Shown: positions 1,568 to 15,883 of the stretch, piece by piece
Numbering within the stretch: the stretch's first letter is position 1
How the letters are laid out: every line of letters starts with the position of its first letter
DNA from: Candidatus Woesearchaeota archaeon
GTDB taxonomy: Archaea > Nanobdellota > Nanobdellia > Woesearchaeales > GW2011-AR4
Reading direction: 5' to 3'
Assembly (NCBI GenBank): GCA_002688775.1
Contig: NZDH01000004.1
Span: 123,420-187,419 of the forward strand
Length of the DNA: 64,000 nucleotides
Made by a program: the position numbers and the translations under genes
Notes under the pieces: model-generated
What the model saw: only the letters and a program-made list of their open reading frames with translations
The model's database searches: none
Told to the model about the DNA's origin: nothing

Positions 1568-3532
1568 TTACAAGAATAATGGAACAAATACAAGCGAAAC
1601 AATGGACATTAATTTGATTAAAATATTTAATGATGGCCCTGAAGTGTCTTTACAAGGATCTCCAACTGTGTCTCCAACAACTGCTGCTTTGTGTGCATCG
1701 CTTCCTTTTCCCCCTAAATGACCCTCTTCAATGTATTTCTTTGCATTATCCCAAGCACCGCCTGAATTGCTCAAGAAAACTGCCATTAAAAATCCAGTTA
1801 CTGTAACTCCAGCCAATAAACCGCCAAGCGCCTCTGCTCCGAATAGATATCCGAATAATACCGGAGTTATTATTGCTATCAAACTTGGCAAAATCATTTC
1901 CTTTAATGCAGCGTGAGTGCTTATGGCTATGCATTTGTTGTAATCAGGCTTTGCTGTGCCTTTCATCAAACCTTTTATTTCTTTGAATTGCCTTCTGACT
2001 TCATTGATAATGTGGAAAGCTGCATTTCCAACAGATTTCATTGTTAAGCTGGAAAACAGGAATGGCATCAAAGCGCCGATAAATAAACCAACAATGACTA
2101 ATGGTTTTCCAATGTCAATTGAAGTTAATCCAGTAATTGTCATATAGCTTGCAAACAAAGCCAGTGCAGTCAAAGCAGCTGAGCCGATTGCAAATCCCTT
2201 TCCGATAGCAGCTGTTGTGTTTCCGACAGCATCCAATGCCTCTGCTCTTTTTCTAACTTCTTTGCCCATCCTACCCATTTCTGCAATTCCTGCTGCATTG
2301 TCAGCAACAGGGCCGTAAGTGTCGCTTGCTAATGTGATTCCCAAAGTGGAAAGCATTCCGACTCCGGCAATTGCAATTCCGAATAAACCTCCAAACTTAA
2401 AGGAGATTAAGATTGCAGCAGAAACAGCAATGACTGGAATTACTGTTGACATCATGCCGACTGACAGACCTTGGATAATGTTTGTTGCAGATCCTGTCTT
2501 AGAGGCTTCTGCTATTGAAATTGTGGGTTTTCTATGAGACGAAGTGAAGTATTCTGTTGATACGCCAATTATTATTCCTGCGATTAATCCAGCAACTGTT
2601 GCAAAGAAAATCCCAACGTCATTGACTAAGAATTTTACAATAAAAAATGAACCAATCAACATTATCACTGATGAAGCAAAGATTCCCTTGTTTAATGCAG
2701 TATGCAAATGCTTCTTTTTTGCAGCCTTTACAAAATATGTGCCTAAGATTGCTGAAACAATTCCGAAAGCTGCTAATGCCAAAGGCAATTTAATCCCCTG
2801 AACTGAGAAAGCAACTACACCAAGAACCATCGCAGCGATTATGTTGTCAACATAGCTTTCAAACAGATCAGCACCCATGCCTGCAACATCTCCGACATTA
2901 TCACCTACATTATCTGCGATTACAGCTGGATTTCTCGGATCATCTTCTGGGATGCCTTTTTCAACCTTGCCTACCAGATCAGCGCCTACATCAGCTGCTT
3001 TAGTGTAAATTCCGCCGCCAACTCTTGCAAACAATGCTATTGAGGAAGCGCCAAATCCAAATCCAAAGATTATGTTTGGATCATCAAAAATTAGATACAA
3101 AGCTGTTACACCCAGCAAACCAAGTCCAACAACACTTAAGCCCATTACAACTCCTGATGAAAATGCAATTTTTAGCCCTTTGCTGATGCTTTTCTTAGCT
3201 GCAACTGCCGTCCTTGAATTTGATTTTGTTGCAATTCTCATTCCAATATTTCCTGCCAAAGCAGATAAAATGCTCCCAGCAACAAATGAAACAGCAAGTT
3301 TTGGTCCAGTCTGAGGAATTGCAAACCATAGAACTAATGCGACAACAATGACAAAAATGACTAAAATTTTATATTCCTTGTGAAGAAATGTCATTGCTCC
3401 CTGATGTATAGCATCAGCTATTTCCTTAATTTTTTGATTGCCTGCATCCTGCTTTAGAATTCTAGAAGCTGTAAATGCTGCAAAAATTAATGCTAAGATG
3501 CTAATTATTATTACTGCTATCAACAACCCCAT
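1568..3532 (-). CDS. hppA: Membrane-bound ion-translocating pyrophosphatase, K+-dependent subfamily signature
   Basis: [28 protein letters not shown] and [18 protein letters not shown] motifs in a multi-TM protein of 654 aa. The Ala in GNTTAA marks the K+-dependent class. Confidence 0.95.
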
Positions 3533-6399: not shown

Positions 6400-7017
6400 T
6401 CAAGTTTTTGCCTTTATCCTCTTCATCCTGAAAATGTTCTCCCGTTCCATCTCTTCTAATCTTAGCTGGATGAATGCCTTAACATTATCTAATTTCGGTA
6501 TGACCACGAATTCAAGTGCATTGACCCTTCTTTTGGTTTTTTCAATTTCATTGAGCAGTTTTCTCATTGAAGTCTCAACTTCTGCTGCTATTATTATTTT
6601 TTCAACGACTTTTTCATAAGCTGCAGCTGCCTCGTCAATAGCAGAGGAACTGTAAACACTATAACCTCGCTCCATAAATGCCTTTTTTATTTCAGAAGAT
6701 TCTATTTTTGGGACTTTTACTCCCATAATATTTTTCGTTGTTAACTTGACATCTGGGATTTGGTGGATGGCCATTGCTATTGACTTGACTTTTAAGTCTC
6801 CTTCCAAAGTTCTTGCAATATTTATTTTTTCCAGTGCAATCTTATATTCATTGACCAGCTCTTCCCTGAGGGATTTTGCCTTCTTTAAAATTTCAAAAAA
6901 TTCAAGAATCAAGCCGTCTCTTTTCTTCTTCAATAAACTGTATCCTGATTTAGCCAGCTTTATCTGCTTCTTTAGCTTCAACAATTCGCTTCTTGTTGGC
7001 TTGATATCCTGCGCCAT
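6400..7017 (-). CDS. atpD: A/V-type ATP synthase subunit D
   Basis: MAQDIKPTRSELLKLKKQIKLAKSGYSLLKKKRDGL is the canonical subunit D N-terminus. 205 aa. Confidence 0.9.
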   Translation of the reverse strand: MAQDIKPTRSELLKLKKQIKLAKSGYSLLKKKRDGLILEFFEILKKAKSLREELVNEYKIALEKINIARTLEGDLKVKSIAMAIHQIPDVKLTTKNIMGVKVPKIESSEIKKAFMERGYSVYSSSAIDEAAAAYEKVVEKIIIAAEVETSMRKLLNEIEKTKRRVNALEFVVIPKLDNVKAFIQLRLEEMERENIFRMKRIKAKT

Positions 7018-8175
7018 TTACATATCCCTCATTGCCCATGATAGTAATGGAGGTGCTATGAAAGTTGTGAGCATTATAACTACTATTAATAATGCGTACA
7101 AACCAGAATCAATGACCCCACTTGTCAGTCCAACTGTAGCAAAAATAATCCCAACTTCCCCTCTTGGCATCATGCCCAACCCGATTACGAGTTTTTTTGC
7201 CTTTACCCCTATTGCAGCCCATCCGGAAACAATTTTTCCGATTATTGCTATTACAAACAAAATTGCTATTGGGGCAATTATTTTTACATCGAATAATGTC
7301 CTGACATCCATCAGCATGCCTGCATGAACAAAAAATATTGGAACAAAAACATCTGCCAAAGGCTTTATTTTTTCCCTTATATGGTCCTTGTCCTCCCTTG
7401 TTTCCAGGATTAAACCTGCTGCAAACGCCCCAACTATTGTTGCCAGTCCAATCCTGTTTGCGATATAAGCCAAACCAAATGCAAAAATGATTGCAGTTAT
7501 TGCATAAGTCCTTTTTATGTTAAGTTTTTTAGTAACTTTTAACAAGAATGGTGCAAATTTTATTCCAATAAAAATAGACCCAGCTAAAAATATTATAGAA
7601 AATAAGGATATTTTTCCTATATTAAACAATGAAACTTTGCCGAATTCTACAATTCCAACCAGAACAGACAAAATAATCAAACCGATTATATCGTCAATAA
7701 CAGCTGCACCTAAAATTATCTTTCCTTCATTGGAATCTATTTTTTTCTTCTCTGCAAATATACGCATTGTAATCCCAATACTTGTTGCAGTCAATGTTGC
7801 TCCGATGAACAAAGCAATAATGGTGCTAGAACCTAGAAATGTGTAATATAGATAGCCCAGCAAAAATGGGAATACCATTCCAACAGTTGCAACTAAAGTT
7901 GAAGCCACTCCAACCTTAAGTAATTTATAAATATTTGATTCAAGTCCTACCTCAAATAACAACAAAATAACTCCAAGCTCAGCTAAAAAAGTGAAAATGT
8001 CCGCTGTTTCTGGATGCACAAGATTTATCAAACTTGGGCCGAGGATTAATCCGACTAATAACTCCCCTAAAACAGCAGATTGCTTGAATTTATGGAACAG
8101 CCACCCGGCTATTTTCGCCAATATTATGATTATCAAGAATTCCAATAATATAGTTCCTAGAACTTCTGCTTCCAT
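7018..8175 (-). CDS. Cation/proton antiporter, CPA2 (Kef/NapA-like) family, membrane domain only
   Basis: About 11-12 predicted TM segments. The N-terminus (AKIAGWLFHKFKQSAVLGELLVGLILGPS) is typical of the Na_H_Exchanger family. Its stop TAA (7018-7020) abuts the atpD ATG (7015-7017). Confidence 0.85.
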   Translation of the reverse strand: MEAEVLGTILLEFLIIIILAKIAGWLFHKFKQSAVLGELLVGLILGPSLINLVHPETADIFTFLAELGVILLLFEVGLESNIYKLLKVGVASTLVATVGMVFPFLLGYLYYTFLGSSTIIALFIGATLTATSIGITMRIFAEKKKIDSNEGKIILGAAVIDDIIGLIILSVLVGIVEFGKVSLFNIGKISLFSIIFLAGSIFIGIKFAPFLLKVTKKLNIKRTYAITAIIFAFGLAYIANRIGLATIVGAFAAGLILETREDKDHIREKIKPLADVFVPIFFVHAGMLMDVRTLFDVKIIAPIAILFVIAIIGKIVSGWAAIGVKAKKLVIGLGMMPRGEVGIIFATVGLTSGVIDSGLYALLIVVIMLTTFIAPPLLSWAMRDM

Positions 8176-8187
8176 TGGTAAAAATTT

Positions 8188-9561
8188 TTATTTTCCTTGC
8201 TCTTTGTAATATTTTTTCTTCAAGTCAGGGCTTATTCTTGTCAACTGGTTTTCAGGCAATAAACCTAATAATTTCCAACCTAAATCCAGAGTCTCTGAAA
8301 TGCTCCGGTCCTCATCTTTTCTTTGCCTTACAAATTTGTCTTCAAATTCAGCTGCAAACTTAAGCAGTTTCTTATCACGATCGCTTAATGCTTCTTCCCC
8401 TACAATTGCAACTAATCCTCTTAAATCACGACCTTCTGCATAAGCTGCATACATCTGGTCAGAAACTTGTTTATGATCTTCTCTTGTTCTTGTCGGTCCT
8501 ATGCCGAGATTCATTAATCTTGATAAAGAAGGAAGCACATCAATGCTGGGATAAATTCCTTTTCTGTGCAATTCCCTTGCCAAAACTATCTGACCTTCAG
8601 TTATATATCCTGTCAAATCCGGAATTGGATGTGTGATATCATCACCAACCATCGTTAGAATTGGAATTTGTGTAATGCTTCCTTTTTTTCCTTTTATAAC
8701 GCCTGCCCTTTCATATATTGTTGCTAAGTCAGTATACATGTAGCCAGGATAACCCCTTCTTCCTGGGATTTCTTCACGGGCAGCACCTATTTCTCTTAAT
8801 GATTCGCAGTAATTTGTCATGTCTGTTAAAATAACAAGAACATGGGCATTTTGTTCATAAGCAAAATATTCAGCTGCTGTTAATGCCATTTTTGGAGTGA
8901 CAAGCCTTTCAACAGCAGGATCATTTGCAAGATTTAGAAAAACAACACTTCTCTCAAGTGCGCCAGTCTGCTTGAAATCATCAATGAAATACTGAGCTTC
9001 TTCGTTTGTGATCCCCATTGCTGCAAATATAACCACGAAATTTTCCTGCTTGCCGATAACTTTTGCCTGTCTTGCAATCTGCAAGGCAATTTCATTATGA
9101 GGCAGGCCTGAACCTGAAAATAACGGCAGTTTTTGACCTCTAACAAGTGTATTCATTGCATCAATTGTTGAAACACCGGTCTGAATAAAATCATGAGGGG
9201 AAGCTCTTGAGAACGGGTTTATTGCAGCTCCTCCAATATCCAGTCTTTTTTCAGGTATGACTTCCGGACCATTGTCAATGGGTTTGCCACTGCCACTTAA
9301 AACTCTGCCAAGCATATCTTTTGAAACATTCAGCTTTAAAGTGTCTCCCAAAAATTTAACTCTTGAATCAACATCAATGCCGGCAGTTCCTTCAAATACC
9401 TGAACTACAACAATATCATCGCTTGTATCAAGCACCTGGCCATTTTTTATATCCCCGTTTGGCATGGATATTTTTACTATATCTGAATAACCGATCGGCT
9501 CTGTCTTCTCTACAAAGATTAAAGGTCCTGCAACTCTGTTTATTGTTTTGTATTCCTTCAT
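8188..9561 (-). CDS. atpB: A/V-type ATP synthase subunit B
   Basis: 457 aa with strong whole-length resemblance to archaeal AtpB ([31 protein letters not shown]). Confidence 0.97.
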
Positions 9562-9562
9562 A

Positions 9563-11299
9563 TCAAATCTTTAACTCCTTTTCCATCTGGCTTGTTAATT
9601 CTCCAAGTAATTTCTCATAATCCTTTACAAATTTCACTTCGCTTAACCTGTCTTTTGCTTTTGTAGTTATTATCTGCTGCAACCTCATGCCGCCATCAAG
9701 GGCTGCATTTGCGAGTTTTGAAAAGTGAAGAATTGATTTCATCATTTGGTATGTTTTCTTTGGTTCACAAAATGTGTCTATCTCATGGAACGCATTCTGC
9801 TGCAGTAAAACTTCCCTGATCAATCTGGCTACAAGCAAAGTGATCTGCTGTTTCTCAGGCAATGCATCTGAACCGACCAATTGGACGATTTCAAGCAATT
9901 TTTCCTCTTCCTGCAGGATTGTCATCATCTGTTCAACAAAATCATGCCAATCAGGTGCAATATTTTTTGCGAACCAAGGGTCAAGTGTATTTAAGTATAG
10001 AGAATATGAAGTAAGCCAATTTATTGAAGGGAAATGTCTTCTCTGGGCAAGTTTTGCATCCAAAGCCCAAAATACTTTTGTAACTCTCAAAGTGCTTTGC
10101 GTTACGGGCTCTGAAAAATCCCCTCCTGGTGGAGAGACAGCTCCAATAACACTGACGCTGCCTTCCTGTTTTGTTCCTAATGGTATTACACGACCTGCCC
10201 TTTCATAAAATTGTGCTAATCTTGTTGAAAGATAAGCAGGATAACCTTCTTCGCCAGGCATTTCCTCCAATCTTGAGGAAATTTCCCTCATTGCTTCTGC
10301 CCATCTTGATGTTGAGTCTGCCATCAACGCAACAGAGTAACCCATATCCCTGTAATATTCTGCTATTGTAATTCCTGTGTAAATGCTTGCTTCTCGCGCT
10401 GCAACTGGCATGTTTGAGGTATTTGCAATGAGCACTGTCCTGTTCATCAAAGGCTTGCCGCTTCTTGGATCAGTAAGTTCCGGGAATTCTGAAAGAACTT
10501 CTGTCATCTCGTTTCCACGCTCGCCACAGCCAACATAAACAATAATCTGGGCATCAGACCATTTTGCAAGCTGCTGCTGTGAAACTGTTTTTCCAGCTCC
10601 AAACGGACCAGGGATTGCTGCAACTCCTCCTTTTGCCAGCGGAAATAGTGCATCAAAAATTCTCTGGCCTGTAATCAACGGCAATTCTGGTTTTAGTTTA
10701 GAACTGACAGGCCTTGGAATCCTGACAGGCCAATTTTGCTTTAATCTCAGCTCAAACCCATTATCGAGTTTTCCTATTGCATCATTAACTGTAAATTTTC
10801 CTGACTTGATTTCTGTAATTTTGCCTTGTTGGTCTGGAGGAACCAAAATTTTATGGATTATTCCGGGATTTTCCTCAACTTCACCGATAATCTGGCCCGG
10901 AGAAACTTTTTCTCCGTTCTTAACAATAGCTTTGAAGTCCCATTTTTTTGTATGATCGAGACCAGGCGCATCAACTCCTCTTTTGATAAAATCACCCATC
11001 TGTTTTATCAGAACAGGCAAAGGTCTTTGAATGCCATCATAAATACTACTAAGCATTCCTGGACCAAGCTCAACACTTAATGGCTGGCCGGTATTCACAA
11101 CCGGTTCACCAGGTTTTATACCAGAAGTGTCTTCGTAAACCTGAATAATTGTCTTTTCGCCTTCAATCTGGATTACTTCGCCCATCAAGTTTTCATTTCC
11201 TACTCTGCAAACATCATACATTCTAGGCTTTATTCCTTTGGCTACAACAACCGGGCCTGCAATTCTGTATAAAACGCCTTTATCCATTTTATTCTTCAA
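9563..11299 (-). CDS. atpA: A/V-type ATP synthase catalytic subunit A
   Basis: Walker [10 protein letters not shown] and [10 protein letters not shown] motifs. No intein-sized insertion. The track start is TTG, and an ATG (MDKGVLY) lies at 11287. Confidence 0.97.
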
Positions 11300-11332
11300 T
11301 TTTAATTTAGTTGCAATACACCTTTTTTATTT

Positions 11333-11400
11333 GTTGGGGTTGGCAACATCACATTAGTTGTGCACTAAGGGGAGGATCGATAAGCAACGAAGTTGCTTAT
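11333..11400 (-). promoter_or_regulatory. Copy 1 of a conserved C-rich intergenic element: stop-codon hairpin plus a 43-nt block, sense to the atp operon
   Basis: The sense strand reads ATAAGCAAC-TTC-GTTGCTTAT (containing the atpF TAA), then CCTCCCCTTAGTGCACAACTAATGTGATGTTGCCAACCCCAAC. About 85% identical to 51894-51936. Confidence 0.6.
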
Positions 11401-11696
11401 TTCCATAAATCCACACCCACTGATTTTTTGATTAGCCTCTTTAAACTATCCTGCTCAACTTTTGTTGAGACTGGTATAAAAACCGGATCCACTGAATCTT
11501 CTATTTCAAGTCTTTGATGGGACTCTAAGTTATCAATTATTTTTTCATCGATTACAACAATTCCAATGTCTTTTTGAGTTTTTAAGTTCTTAATTTCAGT
11601 AAAAGGGTTATCGCCTAATTCGATCGTGTCCCTTATTCCAGCTAATTGAAAACCCACGATAAATTCACTTGTTCCGGCAGCGACAATTTTTACCAT
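11397..11696 (-). CDS. atpF: A/V-type ATP synthase subunit F
   Basis: 99 aa. MVKIVAAGTSEFIVGFQLAGI matches the subunit F N-terminus. Position in the operon fits. Confidence 0.85.
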   Translation of the reverse strand: MVKIVAAGTSEFIVGFQLAGIRDTIELGDNPFTEIKNLKTQKDIGIVVIDEKIIDNLESHQRLEIEDSVDPVFIPVSTKVEQDSLKRLIKKSVGVDLWK

Positions 11697-11697
11697 G

Positions 11698-12780
11698 TTA
11701 GTGTATTAGTTGACTTTCCATAAATTCTTCTTTTAATCCAAGCTGTTTTCCTTTTATTATTATTTTCAAGTTCCTGACTTCGATGTCCTTTGAAAACATA
11801 TAGCCGAGTATCACATCAATAGATAAAGGATGCTGATGCATAAACAAAACAGCTTGTTTTAGCAAATACTTGTAAAGCTCTGTTTCAAGAGAGATCAATG
11901 AATCACTTTTTTTGAATTCTTCAATGCCACTTGCAATTAAATTCTTATATTCAGTTTTTTCCAGCGATTTTGAAAGTTGCTCAAGATCGTCTAGGCCAGC
12001 CATAGCCATCATTTTTGAATCTTTTAATTTATCTCCTGATGGAATTATGAAATCCTTTATAGATTCTTTGTCTGATTTTGCTTTTTTAAATCTTAACAAT
12101 GTCAAAATATTCAAAATCTCGACTTCTTTAAGTAGAAAATTTCTGAATAAATCCCCTTCTTTTGGTAAAATCTCAGAAAATTTTATTAAATGTCCATAAT
12201 AGTATTTGTCCAATGAATTTTCTATGCTGACTAGATTATTTTTTTCGTTAAAATCCTTTAAGCTGCCTTTTAATAATGAAAAGTCAATTAATCGATTTGC
12301 TTTTAGCACTTCCTCTATTGATTCTTTTTTCAAGAGAGAAACCAAGAAGTCGTAACTTAAAGTTCCTGCTCCGGTTAATGAACCAGTAATGTTTTTTTCA
12401 TCTGCATTTGTGAACTTGCCCCTTATGATTGTCTTCAAATCATCTATATCCTTTCTTTTTGCGTATTCCCTGATCAAAAATCCAAGTTCTTCTGATGAAA
12501 TCCTCATTAATTTTTTAAAAGAATCAGCAAGATTTTTGTTCAAAGCCAGCTCAAGCAGATCAGCTCCGGAATATTGGGTTGCTAATTCATTGATCTCTTT
12601 TTTGTAATGGGATTCCTGCAAAAATTTTGCAATTTCACTAAAACTCATCTTAAGCATCCTATGATAATCATCTTTCCTGAAGAGCAGAGATCTCATTACA
12701 ACAGTCCTTACATACGTGTAAGGATAATGCCCAAGCTTCAGCTTTTTTGTTTCTGTTATTGGTTCTTTTAGTTTTAGCAT
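11698..12780 (-). CDS. atpC: A/V-type ATP synthase subunit C (eukaryotic d homologue)
   Basis: 360 aa helical protein between atpE and atpF. The HYPYTYVRTVVMRSLL motif is typical. Confidence 0.85.
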   Translation of the reverse strand: MLKLKEPITETKKLKLGHYPYTYVRTVVMRSLLFRKDDYHRMLKMSFSEIAKFLQESHYKKEINELATQYSGADLLELALNKNLADSFKKLMRISSEELGFLIREYAKRKDIDDLKTIIRGKFTNADEKNITGSLTGAGTLSYDFLVSLLKKESIEEVLKANRLIDFSLLKGSLKDFNEKNNLVSIENSLDKYYYGHLIKFSEILPKEGDLFRNFLLKEVEILNILTLLRFKKAKSDKESIKDFIIPSGDKLKDSKMMAMAGLDDLEQLSKSLEKTEYKNLIASGIEEFKKSDSLISLETELYKYLLKQAVLFMHQHPLSIDVILGYMFSKDIEVRNLKIIIKGKQLGLKEEFMESQLIH

Positions 12781-12782
12781 TT

Positions 12783-13328
12783 TTAACCAAATAATAATTT
12801 GTTTATATTCTGCATTTCGTTTTCTTTTATGCCTTCCAGCATAGTCTCAAAACTATAATCAACTCTGATAGTTTTTTCTTTGTTTTCAGCAATCAAGCCA
12901 CCGATTATATCTATTGGTTCTGAAGTTAATTCCTTGAAGAATCTTGTATCTTTTTTGTTGCAATAGAAATGATCCACATCGACTTCTTTTTTTGCCTTCT
13001 CAATAAGTTTTTTTATATAACCTTCTTTCTTTTGATTATCTAGTGTCTTGATTTTTTTCTTTGCTTCTGCAAATACATTTTCAATAATCTGCTTTTTTGT
13101 CTCAAGAAGTAATTTTTTATTCTCAAGCTCGGCATTTGCTAGCGCCTGCCTTTTAATAAAATCCATCATTTTTTTTGTGTTTGATTCGTTTTTTGCTTTA
13201 ATCCCTTCAATTCTCTTTTCTGTTTCCTTCATAATTCTATTGGATTCCATTCTAGCTTCTGCTAACAGAGCAGTTTCCTGCTCCTTGGCCTGCCTAATTA
13301 CTTCTTCCTTTACTTCTTCCAAGCCCAT
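12783..13328 (-). CDS. atpE: A/V-type ATP synthase subunit E
   Basis: 181 aa. Long charged N-terminal helix with a globular C-terminus. Operon position fits. Confidence 0.8.
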   Translation of the reverse strand: MGLEEVKEEVIRQAKEQETALLAEARMESNRIMKETEKRIEGIKAKNESNTKKMMDFIKRQALANAELENKKLLLETKKQIIENVFAEAKKKIKTLDNQKKEGYIKKLIEKAKKEVDVDHFYCNKKDTRFFKELTSEPIDIIGGLIAENKEKTIRVDYSFETMLEGIKENEMQNINKLLFG

Positions 13329-13334
13329 TTTGGT

Positions 13335-13565
13335 CTATCCTGCTAAATTCAATATTAATATAGCCACAACCAACCCAAAGATTACAATGGTCTCCGGGAT
13401 AACTGTAAGCACAAGGCCTTTACCGAATAGCTCTTCTTTCTCTGCCATTGCACCTATTGCAGCTACGCCAATTTCTTTTTCAGCAATAGCTGCTGCAATT
13501 GCACTTAATCCTATAGCTAGTCCAGAACCCAGTGCTATTAACCCTGTTGATATATCCGCTACCAT
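13335..13565 (-). CDS. atpK: A/V-type ATP synthase proteolipid subunit K (c)
   Basis: 76 aa two-TM hairpin. Gly/Ala-rich helix 1, and helix 2 carries the carboxylate in IPETIVIFG. Confidence 0.85.
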   Translation of the reverse strand: MVADISTGLIALGSGLAIGLSAIAAAIAEKEIGVAAIGAMAEKEELFGKGLVLTVIPETIVIFGLVVAILILNLAG

Positions 13566-13592: not shown

Positions 13593-15458
13593 TTATTCTT
13601 CTTTTAATCCAAACGGTTCATATTTCTCAGCACCGCCGTGGAAAAATTTTGAAAAAAATTCAACATAGTGTAACCTTAGTGAATGCAAGAAGCTTCCAAA
13701 TAATCCTAGTATTATATTTAAAATATGGCCTAGTACAATTATTAAGACTCCAACCAAGACTAAAAAGCCCCCATTATGGAATAATTGCTCTGCTGATTCA
13801 TTTATTATAACAGCTAACGTGACTGAAGATAATCCAATGGCCATCAATCTGATATATGATAATATGTTAGTAAATATGCTTGGCAGTTCCATCAAACCTT
13901 TAACACCTTCTGCTTTGTAGATCATTATTACAGCTATTGCCATAAATCCTGCTCCAATAACCGGGTGAATAAAAATTTTATTTAGGAATGATAATGCAAG
14001 CAGCGCAACTCCAATTTCTAAAATAATCCAGCTGGCTTTTTCATAGATTGCCATTTTAAGGCCATGATCGTTGTAAATGTTGATAAATCCTATGATCAGC
14101 CCTATATTTACATGAATAACTCCAATTCCAAGCACAATATACATTAAAGTGAACATATCGTGCGATCTGCTCAATAAATGCCATAAATGGTAATGCCCGA
14201 TTTCTTCGAATCCAAAAATCTCTCCATACAAAAATCCGAATAAAATTGATACAAAAGATGCGAGCATTAAAATATTGAAAAAATTGCCAAATTTTGGAAG
14301 TTTTTTCTTTAAGAGCCAAAAGGATAGCAAGCTTACAAGTCCATATCCTATATCACCGAGCATAATTCCGAAGAAAATCGGAAATGTCAAAAATATAAAG
14401 AATGTTGGATCAATTTCCCTGTAATTAGGCATACTATACAAATTGATGAAAAATTCGAATGGTTTTGCAATTTTTGCGTTGTCAAGCTTAATAGGCACCT
14501 TGTCTTGTTTCTTTGGCGGTTCGAAATGAACAAATACCTTATTTTTAGTAACTTTGTTCAATCTTTCTATTGACTTGTGTAATTCCTCAGTTGGTACCCA
14601 TCCTTTTATAAGAAAACTGCTTGGAGTTGATGCAAATTTCAATGGAGCTTCTGCTTTCTCAAGTTGTTCACTTAGAAAACTATCAGCTGCTGTTAAAAAT
14701 CCCTGGCTTTCTTTTCCTATCAATTCGAGCCTCTTTTTATTATAATCGATTTTTTTCTTAAGATTATTGTTTGCTTCTTCCAGTTTTCTTAGGTTGCTTG
14801 AGGCACTTCCCTTTAGATCACTTAGATGATCATTTAGATTTGCAAAATTAACCGGAGAAAAATCACTTCGTTGCAACAAATTGTTTACTTGTTCTTTGTA
14901 TTTTACATCAACAAACAAAACTATAAAAGGTCCTTTTTTTTCTATTTTATAAAACAGCATAAATCTATCTGTTATTTTTGATAATTGCCCTCTCAAGGCA
15001 TTTTCTTCAGTTTTTACATAACCCTTAACATAAGATAGCGATTTATAGGCTGTAAAACATTCAAGCGGAACGTCGATTTCTTTTAAGAGATTAAGTTCCT
15101 GTATAAGAGAATCATTCTTAGCATGAATTTGTTGTATTTTTTTAAGCTCATCTTGATATATATTTACTTCGTCATTAAGGCGTTTTAGGTTTGATCCTAT
15201 GTTTGTCAGGCCTTTTTTGAGCTCGAATTCATTATCTTCAGTCTTGATATTCAAAGCAGAGATTAATGCCCTTACTTTAACGAGAATTTCCGAAAGTTTG
15301 TTTGCGCTTTCCAATGGAGTTCCTATATCTGCTAAATCATTCTTAGAATGATCTACGATATGCAATACTTGCAGATTATGGAGCTCTTTTATAACAGATT
15401 CTTGTACATTCTTAGGTCCTGTTACTATTACACTGCACATGTCATGTGGTCTTAGCAT
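13593..15458 (-). CDS. atpI: A/V-type ATP synthase subunit I (a)
   Basis: 621 aa. Soluble coiled N-terminal half and a multi-TM C-terminal half with the conserved SYIRLMAIGLSS (Arg) motif. Confidence 0.9.
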   Translation of the reverse strand: MLRPHDMCSVIVTGPKNVQESVIKELHNLQVLHIVDHSKNDLADIGTPLESANKLSEILVKVRALISALNIKTEDNEFELKKGLTNIGSNLKRLNDEVNIYQDELKKIQQIHAKNDSLIQELNLLKEIDVPLECFTAYKSLSYVKGYVKTEENALRGQLSKITDRFMLFYKIEKKGPFIVLFVDVKYKEQVNNLLQRSDFSPVNFANLNDHLSDLKGSASSNLRKLEEANNNLKKKIDYNKKRLELIGKESQGFLTAADSFLSEQLEKAEAPLKFASTPSSFLIKGWVPTEELHKSIERLNKVTKNKVFVHFEPPKKQDKVPIKLDNAKIAKPFEFFINLYSMPNYREIDPTFFIFLTFPIFFGIMLGDIGYGLVSLLSFWLLKKKLPKFGNFFNILMLASFVSILFGFLYGEIFGFEEIGHYHLWHLLSRSHDMFTLMYIVLGIGVIHVNIGLIIGFINIYNDHGLKMAIYEKASWIILEIGVALLALSFLNKIFIHPVIGAGFMAIAVIMIYKAEGVKGLMELPSIFTNILSYIRLMAIGLSSVTLAVIINESAEQLFHNGGFLVLVGVLIIVLGHILNIILGLFGSFLHSLRLHYVEFFSKFFHGGAEKYEPFGLKEE

Positions 15459-15459
15459 T

Positions 15460-15777
15460 TTATATCAATTTTTCAAATTTTTTAATCACAAAATCAACTG
15501 CTTTGGAAACATTTTTTTCTGATTTAGTCTTAACTTGTTTCGCGGTTTTTCTTCCTTCTCCAATTTTTTCTTCTGTTATTAATTTGGATTTTTCTCTGAA
15601 ATCAATGAGTTTTTTTTCTTGAGTTTTTTTTATCTCTTCTTCCTTTGCCCCAAATAACTTCGAAGAATTGATCTTTGCTTTGTGTATCATGGATTCTCTT
15701 TCTCGTTTAGTTCTTTCTATAATATCTTCAGCTATCTTCTCAGAATTTCTTATTTCAGTAAGTATATTGCCTTCCAT
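15460..15777 (-). CDS. atpH: A/V-type ATP synthase subunit H
   Basis: 105 aa charged helical protein at the head of the operon, which is the usual AtpH position. Confidence 0.6.
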   Translation of the reverse strand: MEGNILTEIRNSEKIAEDIIERTKRERESMIHKAKINSSKLFGAKEEEIKKTQEKKLIDFREKSKLITEEKIGEGRKTAKQVKTKSEKNVSKAVDFVIKKFEKLI

Positions 15778-15883
15778 TTTGCTGAATTTGTTTTATATTG
15801 GTTATATATAAATATTACTGGTGTTGTCGATAAAAGTTGTTAATAAAAGTTTATAAATGTTATTAATTATCCCAACTATAAAT

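What the first reader, a model, noticed from the sequence alone, without database searches (positions are those of the whole stretch)
7018..8175. CPA2 cation/proton antiporter translationally coupled inside the A1Ao ATPase operon
The operon order on the minus strand is atpH-I-K-E-C-F-A-B-[antiporter]-D. The antiporter starts 12 nt after the atpB stop. Its TAA stop is directly adjacent to the atpD ATG (TAAATG at 7015-7020). atpB and atpD are normally adjacent, so a secondary transporter has been placed inside the operon and should be made in a fixed ratio with the ATPase. This suggests obligatory coupling of Na+(K+)/H+ exchange to the ATPase ion cycle. The window also holds a K+-dependent-type PPase, a second CPA2 antiporter and a K+ channel.
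Basis: partly seen in the sequence, partly recalled or inferred. Interest (0 to 1): 0.6.

Follow-up and report, generated by a model that had tools for sequence, protein, structure and literature searches.

The report
Sodium-proton antiporter inside archaeal ATPase operon
A tiny DPANN (Woesearchaeota-type) archaeon carries an intact NapA-type sodium/proton exchanger gene between two core genes of its rotary ATPase, in a slot that related archaea repeatedly fill with carbonic anhydrases or the same exchanger, which suggests but does not prove helpers for the pump's proton and pH balance.

Summary
The minus-strand operon reads atpH-I-K-E-C-F-A-B-[385-aa antiporter, 7018-8175]-D. There are 12 nt after the atpB stop, and the antiporter's TAA abuts the atpD ATG.

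The protein is a full-length relative of Thermus NapA, an electrogenic CPA2 Na+/H+ antiporter. Every ion-site residue is kept and there is no regulatory tail.

"Obligatory coupling" is not supported. All 42 other species of the genus lack the insert, although their AtpB and AtpD are about 90% identical to the window's. The tight stop-start junction is not conserved in the closest orthologous arrangements.

The atpB-atpD junction is a variable accessory slot across the order. Of 134 operons, 28 carry cargo of 400 nt or more:
- 17 carry carbonic-anhydrase-fold genes;
- 4 carry NapA-type antiporters, from three separate antiporter clades;
- 7 carry other or no recognisable genes.

The same antiporter subfamily also sits after atpD, just upstream of atpH, or beside the membrane pyrophosphatase. 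In the order sample 5 of 16 copies lie in an atp operon, against about 1% expected.

I read it as a co-expressed but dispensable ion and pH accessory of an ATP-driven pump. No transcript data were available, and the coupling ions of both pumps are unresolved.

The parts
7018..8175 (-). NapA-type (CPA2) electrogenic Na+/H+ antiporter gene, 385 aa, occupying the atpB-atpD slot
   Evidence: PF00999, E 7.4e-73. Full-length match to Thermus thermophilus NapA, 4bwz/5bz2/5bz3, E 1e-66. T131, S132, D161, D162, K314, R338 and E340 are conserved.
8176..8187 (-). 12-nt spacer between the atpB stop and the antiporter ATG; no Shine-Dalgarno motif
   Evidence: Sequence read.
7015..7020 (-). TAAATG junction: the antiporter stop directly abuts the atpD start. 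A GAGGG motif lies 9 nt upstream, inside the antiporter's 3' end.
   Evidence: The junction is not conserved in orthologous arrangements.
6400..7017 (-). atpD (central-stalk subunit D)
   Evidence: PF01813, E 1.5e-56.
8188..9561 (-). atpB
   Evidence: PF00006, PF22919 and PF02874.
9563..11299 (-). atpA
   Evidence: PF00006, PF16886, PF22919 and PF02874.
11397..11696 (-). atpF
   Evidence: PF01990.
11698..12780 (-). atpC
   Evidence: PF01992.
12783..13328 (-). atpE
   Evidence: PF01991.
13335..13565 (-). atpK (proteolipid c subunit, one hairpin, ...AIAEKEIG...VIPETIVIFGL...)
   Evidence: PF00137. Alignment to the Thermus V/A-ATPase subunit K.
13593..15458 (-). atpI (a-subunit homologue)
   Evidence: PF01496.
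15460..15777 (-). atpH (peripheral-stalk subunit)
   Evidence: Weak PF16999 match, E 4e-5. 45% identical to the atpH of L064.
15805..15812 (-). TATA-like box TTTATATA, 28-35 nt upstream of the atpH ATG; candidate operon promoter
   Evidence: Sequence read. This is an inference; no transcript data exist.
1568..3532 (-). K+-dependent-type membrane pyrophosphatase, a second primary ion pump 2.9 kb downstream of atpD (context only)
   Evidence: PF03030, E 4e-277. [10 protein letters not shown]. Alignment to 4a01. Antiporter orthologues lie next to a PPase in L067, G128 and G284.

Best explanation
The atpB-atpD junction of A-type ATPase operons in this archaeal order (Woesearchaeales-type DPANN) is an accessory-gene slot. 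In this genome it holds a NapA-type electrogenic Na+/H+ antiporter.

Shown:
- The gene is intact and under strong purifying selection.
- It keeps every ion-site residue of Thermus NapA.
- It is packed into the operon with the same very short spacers as the ATPase genes.
- The same antiporter subfamily has become linked to atp operons repeatedly, at three different positions, and also to the membrane pyrophosphatase.

Inferred:
- It is transcribed with the ATPase from the promoter upstream of atpH.
- The assembly shows no complex-I/Mrp-type module and no haem-copper oxidase, so the ATPase probably runs as an ATP-driven outward ion pump.
- If the pump exports H+, the antiporter lets 2 H+ back in per Na+ expelled. 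The pair would then act as an ATP-driven Na+ extrusion system that also limits alkalinisation of the cytoplasm.
- The carbonic anhydrases found in the same slot in relatives would serve the same proton economy, by making H+ and HCO3- from CO2.

The antiporter is a co-regulated, lineage-specific helper. It is not a subunit and the ATPase does not need it.
For: - Anatomy and family.
- Operon layout: spacers of 0-12 nt, like the other cistrons; only three cistrons have a Shine-Dalgarno-like motif; the density of T-runs (6.9 per kb) matches the other membrane gene, atpI (5.9 per kb); a TATA-like box lies upstream of atpH.
- No bracketing repeats. GC content is like the neighbours.
- Slot orthologues at 80-85% identity occur in three independent metagenome or MAG contigs. 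Non-synonymous difference is 0.08-0.14 while synonymous difference is 0.69-0.79, that is, saturated.
- Order-wide survey: 28 of 134 operons carry cargo of 400 nt or more in the slot. NapA-type antiporters occur in G000, G077, G087 and G202, which fall in three separate clades of the antiporter tree.
- G166 has the antiporter directly after atpD.
- L064, L065 and L244 have it two genes upstream of atpH.
- L067, G128 and G284 have it beside the PPase.
- In the order sample 5 of 16 orthologues lie in an atp operon, against about 0.9% expected (binomial P = 2e-7; P = 4e-6 when counted by genus).
- No PF00361 or PF00115 in the assembly.
- Seventeen of the 28 slot cargoes belong to the beta-carbonic-anhydrase superfamily.
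Against:
- The coupling ion of the ATPase cannot be read from AtpK. The H+-coupled Thermus c subunit has the same PET motif.
- The PPase signature is ambiguous. The direction of net ion flow is therefore an inference.
- The insert is absent from all 42 sampled congeners, so any benefit is conditional.
- Junctions of the same operon also carry seemingly unrelated cargo in congeners: a HepT/MNT toxin-antitoxin pair and a glutamine amidotransferase between atpA and atpB. The operon therefore tolerates passengers.
- The assembly is only 73% complete, so the absences of a respiratory chain and of carbonic anhydrase are provisional.
Confidence: 0.6

Rival explanations
1. Neutral passenger. The atp operon junctions are permissive landing sites in these streamlined genomes. 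The antiporter merely borrows a strong constitutive promoter, and its function (general Na+ and pH homeostasis) has no specific relation to the ATPase.
For: - Slot contents turn over fast within one genus: empty, 165-373 nt of non-coding sequence, or at least six unrelated gene families.
- The atpA-atpB junction holds a toxin-antitoxin pair in G056 and a glutamine amidotransferase in G001.
- All 42 sampled congeners lack the antiporter.
- Precedent: ntpJ (KtrB) of the Enterococcus hirae ntp operon is co-transcribed, yet it was reported as functionally independent of the Na+-ATPase (PMC12604602, citing Murata et al. 1996).
Against: - The same antiporter subfamily is linked to atp operons in at least four lineages and at three different positions. 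It is also linked to the other primary pump, the PPase. That is 5 of 16 copies against about 1% expected.
- Slot cargo is not random: 21 of 28 are proton-handling genes, either carbonic-anhydrase fold or NapA.
- Retention is long and under purifying selection.
Confidence: 0.22
2. Obligatory, stoichiometric or physical coupling. The antiporter is made in a fixed ratio with the ATPase and is required for its ion cycle, perhaps as a docked partner.
For: The TAAATG junction and the 12-nt spacer in the window. An overlapping TAATG junction in L062 and spacers of 3-4 nt in G087 and G202.
Against: - Near-identical ATPases (AtpB about 92% identical, AtpD about 90%) work without it in 42 congeners.
- The spacer to atpD is 52 nt in L061, 154 nt in L243 and about 55 nt in G077.
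- Orthologues are encoded away from the operon in many lineages.
- The protein has no extra domain beyond the NapA core that could serve as a docking module (385 aa, PF00999 over residues 18-382).
Confidence: 0.05
3. The antiporter, or atpD, is transcribed from an internal promoter, so its expression is uncoupled from the upstream ATPase genes.
For: AT-rich archaeal coding sequence can hide TATA-like boxes. Some orthologous arrangements have spacers of 52-154 nt before atpD that could hold a promoter.
Against: In the window, the 40 nt upstream of the antiporter and of atpD show no TTTATATA-like box. With spacers of 12 nt and 0 nt, any promoter would have to lie inside coding sequence. The consensus scan found no enrichment of sites (44 found against 37.9 +/- 6.3 expected), though that scan models bacterial promoters only.
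Confidence: 0.1

Closest known systems
Thermus thermophilus NapA (CPA2 family; PDB 4BWZ, 5BZ2, 5BZ3)
   Same: Same length class (385 aa against 386). Alignable end to end, E 1e-66. Conserved T-S in TM4, D-D in TM5 (window D161/D162 = NapA D156/D157), the TM10 lysine (K314 = K305) and R-x-E (R338/E340). No KTN/RCK tail.
   Different: An archaeal DPANN protein, about 45% identical by eye from the alignment. It is encoded inside a rotary-ATPase operon. Its activity and ion specificity are untested.
Enterococcus hirae ntp operon (ntpFIKECGABDHJ), with ntpJ = KtrB K+ transporter
   Same: A secondary cation transporter gene lies within a V/A-type ATPase operon and is co-transcribed with it (PMC12604602, citing Takase 1994 and Murata 1996).
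   Different: The transporter family differs (Trk/Ktr K+ uptake, not a CPA2 antiporter). It sits at the 3' end, not between B and D. It is bacterial. It was reported as functionally independent of the ATPase.
Carbonic-anhydrase genes in the atpB-atpD slot of Woesearchaeota A-ATPase operons
   Same: Exactly the same slot, the same order of archaea, the same tight packing. I found 17 such cases in 134 operons.
   Different: The cargo here is a membrane antiporter, not a soluble beta-CA-fold enzyme. The window's assembly has no detectable homologue of any of those CA families.
KefB/KefC glutathione-gated K+ efflux systems (CPA2; PDB 8BXG)
   Same: The same Pfam domain, PF00999.
   Different: A much weaker match (E 3e-18, residues 29-319). 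KefC has a C-terminal KTN/RCK domain, which is absent here. The 'Kef-type' names that JGI gives to homologues are generic.

Membership tests
CPA2 / NapA-type electrogenic Na+/H+ antiporter | Na_H_Exchanger (PF00999) transmembrane domain over the whole protein | tested here: met
   E 7.4e-73, residues 18-382 of 385, profile positions 2-373 of 375.
CPA2 / NapA-type electrogenic Na+/H+ antiporter | End-to-end homology to structurally solved NapA, closer than to KefC | tested here: met
   4bwz/5bz2/5bz3, E 1e-66, query residues 10-384. KefC scores only E 3e-18.
CPA2 / NapA-type electrogenic Na+/H+ antiporter | Two adjacent aspartates in TM5 (NapA D156/D157), the hallmark of electrogenic CPA2. CPA1 has N-D. 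The residue roles are from my own knowledge of Lee et al. 2013. | tested here: met
   AAVIDDIIGL with D161 and D162. The offset to NapA numbering was verified from the alignment. Invariant in 124 of 124 homologues.
CPA2 / NapA-type electrogenic Na+/H+ antiporter | TM10 lysine (NapA K305), proposed second proton carrier (from my own knowledge of Uzdavinys et al. 2017) | tested here: met
   K314 in IIGKIVSG aligns with K305. Invariant in 124 of 124.
CPA2 / NapA-type electrogenic Na+/H+ antiporter | No C-terminal KTN/RCK regulatory domain (distinguishes it from KefB/KefC) | tested here: met
   The protein ends 3 residues after the PF00999 match.
CPA2 / NapA-type electrogenic Na+/H+ antiporter | Na+(Li+)/H+ exchange activity with 2 H+ : 1 Na+ stoichiometry | not testable with these tools
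   Needs vesicle or proteoliposome assays.
Archaeal A1Ao (A-type) ATPase operon | Nine subunit genes H, I, K, E, C, F, A, B, D in one co-directional cluster | tested here: met
   Pfam matches for all nine. Spacers of 0-27 nt, except 97 nt between F and A.
Archaeal A1Ao (A-type) ATPase operon | One polycistronic transcript that includes the antiporter | not testable with these tools
There is only indirect sequence evidence.
atpB-atpD accessory slot of Woesearchaeales-type ATPase operons | Extra gene or genes on the operon strand exactly between atpB and atpD, recurring across families of the order | tested here: met
   28 of 134 operons have 400 nt or more in the slot. NapA-type cargo occurs in G000, G077, G087 and G202.
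Enterococcus-type ntp operon with transporter (ntpJ) | Trk/Ktr-family K+ transporter at the 3' end of the operon | tested here: not met
   The cargo here is PF00999 and lies between B and D. Only the principle is shared: a co-transcribed secondary transporter.

The most novel reading that the evidence does not exclude
The atpB-atpD slot encodes interchangeable 'proton-return' modules: beta-carbonic anhydrases in most lineages and NapA-type antiporters in others. Respiration-less DPANN archaea would need these to run their A-type ATPase as an outward pump without alkalinising a very small cytoplasm. On this reading NapA and carbonic anhydrase are functional alternatives selected by habitat (Na+ and pH against CO2). 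The rotary ATPase plus its slot gene would then form a previously unrecognised minimal ion-homeostasis unit, possibly with physical association.
Probability: 0.2. Interest if true: 0.75.

Novelty: new variant of a known kind. Interest (0 to 1): 0.5.

Why it matters
DPANN archaea have minimal genomes and mostly no respiratory chain, and what their rotary ATPases do is an open question. A slot inside the operon that evolution keeps refilling with proton-handling genes gives a concrete, testable hint. The cargoes are carbonic anhydrases of several lineages and, as shown here, NapA-type Na+/H+ antiporters from three separate clades. The hint is that the enzyme works as an ATP-driven pump whose proton and sodium balance needs a co-expressed helper.

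The pattern also supplies natural comparison sets for experiments and for environmental correlation. Closely related operons exist with an empty slot, a carbonic anhydrase or an antiporter.

The single instance in this window is a modest finding on its own. Its value lies in adding a second functional class to the slot pattern.

Tried and rejected
1. The search for related loci with the antiporter, on genome contigs and metagenome contigs. Both scans were swamped by bacterial homologues at 47% identity or less, picked up through the conserved GMMPRGEV pattern. They told me nothing about context, and both caps are spent.
3. The sigma-70 promoter and intrinsic-terminator scan does not apply to archaea and showed no enrichment.
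4. A tree of atpD plus the 3' end of atpB, meant to decide between a single insertion and several within the genus. It is poorly resolved, and an AU test cannot reject monophyly of the antiporter-bearing operons (p = 0.29). This is undecided.
5. Reading the coupling ion from AtpK. I rejected this because the H+-coupled Thermus c subunit shares the PET motif.
6. Reading Na+ against H+ from the PPase. It has Glu at the position that, from memory, corresponds to E246 of the Thermotoga Na+-PPase (that alignment was not printed), and it has Asp where Vigna has E301. This is ambiguous.
7. A phylum-level sample of 301 genomes found no orthologue outside the order.
8. A search for integration scars found no repeats bracketing the gene.
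9. Literature searches for a published description found none. One search failed on syntax. One search for the c-subunit Na+ motif gave nothing usable.
10. Pfam and PDB sequence searches for three slot cargo families (203, 268 and 277 aa) found nothing convincing.

Full report
**1. The observation**

The ORF list and the sequence itself confirm the coordinates.
- A 385-codon ORF lies at 7018-8175 on the minus strand.
- It starts 12 nt (AAATTTTTACCA) after the TAA stop of the gene at 8188-9561.
- It ends with a TAA that directly abuts the ATG of the gene at 6400-7017 (TAAATG).

Pfam identifies the flanking genes as atpB and atpD and the insert as a Na_H_Exchanger domain protein (PF00999, E 7.4e-73, residues 18-382). 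Upstream lie atpA, F, C, E, K, I and H in the canonical archaeal order.

Beyond the operon lie pgk and a membrane pyrophosphatase downstream, and gatE, gatD and cdc48 upstream.

The genome is a 1.04-Mb assembly in 19 contigs, 73% complete. Source names on homologues and an earlier follow-up note place it among Woesearchaeota/Nanoarchaeota, that is, DPANN.

**2. What the protein is**

Against all PDB sequences, the best matches are the three Thermus thermophilus NapA entries (4bwz, 5bz2, 5bz3). They score E 1e-66 and align from residue 10 to 384. KefC is far behind at E 3e-18.

I tracked the alignment gaps to convert numbering. Window D161/D162 equal NapA D156/D157, and K314 equals K305. T131/S132 and R338/E340 are also conserved. 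These seven positions are invariant or nearly so in 124 homologues. There is no KTN/RCK tail.

It is therefore a NapA-type CPA2 antiporter. By homology it is an electrogenic exchanger of 2 H+ for 1 Na+. The activity itself is untested.

**3. Integration into the operon**

Spacers between the ATPase cistrons are 1-6 nt, except 27 nt between I and K and 97 nt between F and A. The antiporter's 12-nt and 0-nt spacers fit that layout.

Only atpK, atpB and atpD have a Shine-Dalgarno-like motif. The motif for atpD (GAGGG) lies inside the antiporter's 3' end.

T5+ runs in the antiporter (6.9 per kb) match those in atpI, the other membrane-protein gene (5.9 per kb).

A TTTATATA box sits 28-35 nt before the atpH ATG. 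Nothing similar precedes the antiporter or atpD.

GC content is like the neighbours, and no repeats bracket the gene.

**4. Relatives in the same genus**

GTDB holds 43 species of the genus.
- AtpD is 82-92% identical to the window's, and AtpB is about 90-94% identical.
- The best antiporter homologue in any congener is 40% identical or less, and none is flanked by atpB or atpD.

The insert is thus unique to this species among the species representatives.

The junction itself varies strikingly:
- 0-69 nt in 14 congeners;
- 165-373 nt without a credible ORF in 9;
- in the rest, genes: a Pro_CA beta-carbonic anhydrase (G019); an extra proteolipid plus an LCIB-type carbonic anhydrase (G001; PF18599, E 4e-53); a family of about 270 aa (G042, G047, G053); and unknown proteins of 203 aa and 277 aa (G009, G015).

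The atpA-atpB junction also carries passengers. G056 has a HepT/MNT toxin-antitoxin pair and G001 has a class-I glutamine amidotransferase.

**5. Closest orthologues in metagenomes**

A search of 5.8 billion proteins found orthologues at 64-85% identity. I looked up their contigs, with these results.

| Protein | Identity | Context |
|---|---|---|
| P0002 | 85% | between atpB and atpD |
| P0004 | 84% | between atpB and atpD |
| P0007 | 80% | between atpB and atpD |
| P0016 | 75% | two genes upstream of atpH, same strand |
| P0010 | 74% | two genes upstream of atpH, same strand |
| P0017 | 72% | two genes upstream of atpH, same strand |
| P0019 | 70% | next to a membrane PPase |
| P0009 | 75% | elsewhere |
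| P0015 | 74% | elsewhere |
| P0024 | 68% | elsewhere |
| P0025 | 65% | elsewhere |

In the three upstream-of-atpH cases, a conserved 289-294-aa protein without Pfam hits lies between the antiporter and atpH.

In an ML tree, the slot copies form one weakly supported group (bootstrap 54-57). That group is sister (bootstrap 89) to a well-supported clade (99) that holds the upstream-of-atpH and PPase-adjacent copies.

Among the four slot arrangements, the antiporter-to-atpD spacer is 0 nt, a 1-nt overlap, 52 nt and 154 nt. The tight junction is therefore not a conserved feature.

Non-synonymous difference among the four is 0.08-0.14, while synonymous sites are saturated at 0.69-0.79. The arrangement is old and the gene is under strong purifying selection.

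**6. Order-wide survey**

I located AtpD and AtpB in 401 genomes drawn evenly from the order and paired them by contig and strand. This gave 134 operons.

| atpB-atpD gap | Operons |
|---|---|
| 100 nt or less | 75 |
| 101-400 nt | 31 |
| 401-1000 nt | 16 |
| 1001-2500 nt | 12 |

I fetched all gaps of 400 nt or more and classified their ORFs. Counting the window, the 28 cargoes are:
- 17 of the beta-carbonic-anhydrase superfamily: 7 Pro_CA alone, 3 Pro_CA plus the 270-aa family, 4 LCIB-type, 1 of the 270-aa family alone, and 2 of a 309-339-aa family;
- 4 NapA-type antiporters: the window, G077, and G087 and G202 (same genus);
- 1 each of the 277-aa family, the 203-aa family, a 268-aa protein and a hexapeptide-repeat protein;
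- 3 without a sense ORF.

By hhalign, the 270-aa family links to LCIB at 94% probability (E 1.6e-7), and the 309-aa family links to Pro_CA at 92% probability.

A search with the antiporter over the same 401 genomes found 16 orthologues:
- 4 are in the slot;
- 1 (G166) lies directly after atpD;
- 2 (G128, G284) lie about 2.5 kb from the PPase gene.

In a FastTree of 124 homologues, the slot copies fall in three separate clades interspersed with copies located elsewhere. If genes were placed at random, about 0.9% would fall in or next to the operon. Five of 16 gives P = 2e-7, and 4 of 13 genera gives P = 4e-6.

A phylum-level sample found no orthologue outside the order.

**7. Mechanism**

The assembly has no complex-I/Mrp-type subunit (PF00361) and no haem-copper oxidase (PF00115), although the same searches hit 13 and 9 of 14 control genomes. 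To my knowledge, published Woesearchaeota genomes are fermentative. Together these points make an ATP-hydrolysing, outward-pumping role for the ATPase the likelier mode.

Paired with an H+ pump, a NapA-type exchanger would bring 2 H+ back per Na+ expelled. That would build a Na+ gradient and limit cytoplasmic alkalinisation. Carbonic anhydrase would also supply cytoplasmic H+, which gives a common rationale for the two dominant slot cargoes. This is inference.

The coupling ion is undetermined.
- AtpK has ...AIAEKEIG...VIPETIVIFGL..., but the H+-coupled Thermus c subunit has the same PET motif.
- The PPase is of the K+-dependent type ([10 protein letters not shown]).
- The PPase also has Glu where the Vigna H+-PPase has Gly, and Asp where Vigna has E301. 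That signature is ambiguous.

The window's assembly has no detectable homologue of any slot carbonic-anhydrase family. That fits NapA substituting for carbonic anhydrase, but the assembly is incomplete.

**8. Comparison with what is known**

Full-text searches found no description of an antiporter in an archaeal A-ATPase operon.

The nearest published precedent is ntpJ (KtrB) at the 3' end of the Enterococcus hirae Na+-ATPase operon. It is co-transcribed, yet it was reported as functionally independent of the ATPase (PMC12604602, citing Takase 1994 and Murata 1996). That precedent argues for caution about 'obligatory coupling'.

Earlier unchecked notes of this scan had already reported carbonic anhydrases in the same slot. 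My survey reproduces that independently and adds the antiporter as a second recurrent cargo class.

**9. Verdict**

- This is a new variant of a known kind, namely a secondary transporter co-encoded with a rotary ATPase and a new cargo class of the Woesearchaeal B-D slot.
- Interest is moderate at 0.5. Most of that comes from the slot-wide pattern rather than from this single gene.

Noticed in passing
L073 1350-2191 (G056) and L082 3346-4063 (G001): The atpA-atpB junction of congeners also carries passengers. G056 has a HepT-like RNase plus an MNT nucleotidyltransferase (a toxin-antitoxin pair). G001 has a class-I glutamine amidotransferase.
   Followed up: partly
L044 / L082 (G001), between atpB and atpD: A second proteolipid gene (83 aa, PF00137) and an LCIB-type carbonic anhydrase (PF18599, E 4e-53) sit together in the slot.
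   Followed up: partly
L064 5361-6230, L065 2868-3737, L244 2791-3675: A conserved 289-294-aa protein without Pfam hits lies between the antiporter and atpH in the sister clade. Its N-terminus looks AbrB/SpoVT-like by eye, so it may be a regulator. It has no homologue in the window's genome.
   Followed up: partly
window 1568-3532 (-): The membrane pyrophosphatase has the K+-dependent signature [10 protein letters not shown]. In ADLFESYVD it has Glu where the Vigna H+-PPase has Gly, and Asp where Vigna has E301. The coupling ion (Na+, H+ or both) is ambiguous.
   Followed up: partly
G367:C7:66593-69411 (L271): The AtpB match stops at residue 321 inside a 929-aa open frame, which may indicate an intein or a fusion. 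The 1.8-kb gap before atpD holds only short, arginine-rich ORFs.
   Followed up: no
L077 3586-4096 (G041): atpD is split over two frames, after about residue 130. This is either a frameshift or an assembly error.
   Followed up: no
window 11300-11396 (-): An unusually long 97-nt spacer separates atpF from the TTG start called for atpA. I did not examine it.
   Followed up: no
L040, L045, L050, L052, L055, L060, L068, L072, L076 (atpB-atpD gaps of 165-373 nt): Nine operons (eight congeners plus G025 from another family) have mid-sized atpB-atpD gaps without a credible ORF. At the order level, 31 of 134 operons have gaps of 101-400 nt. These may be decayed cargo, small genes or RNA elements.
   Followed up: no
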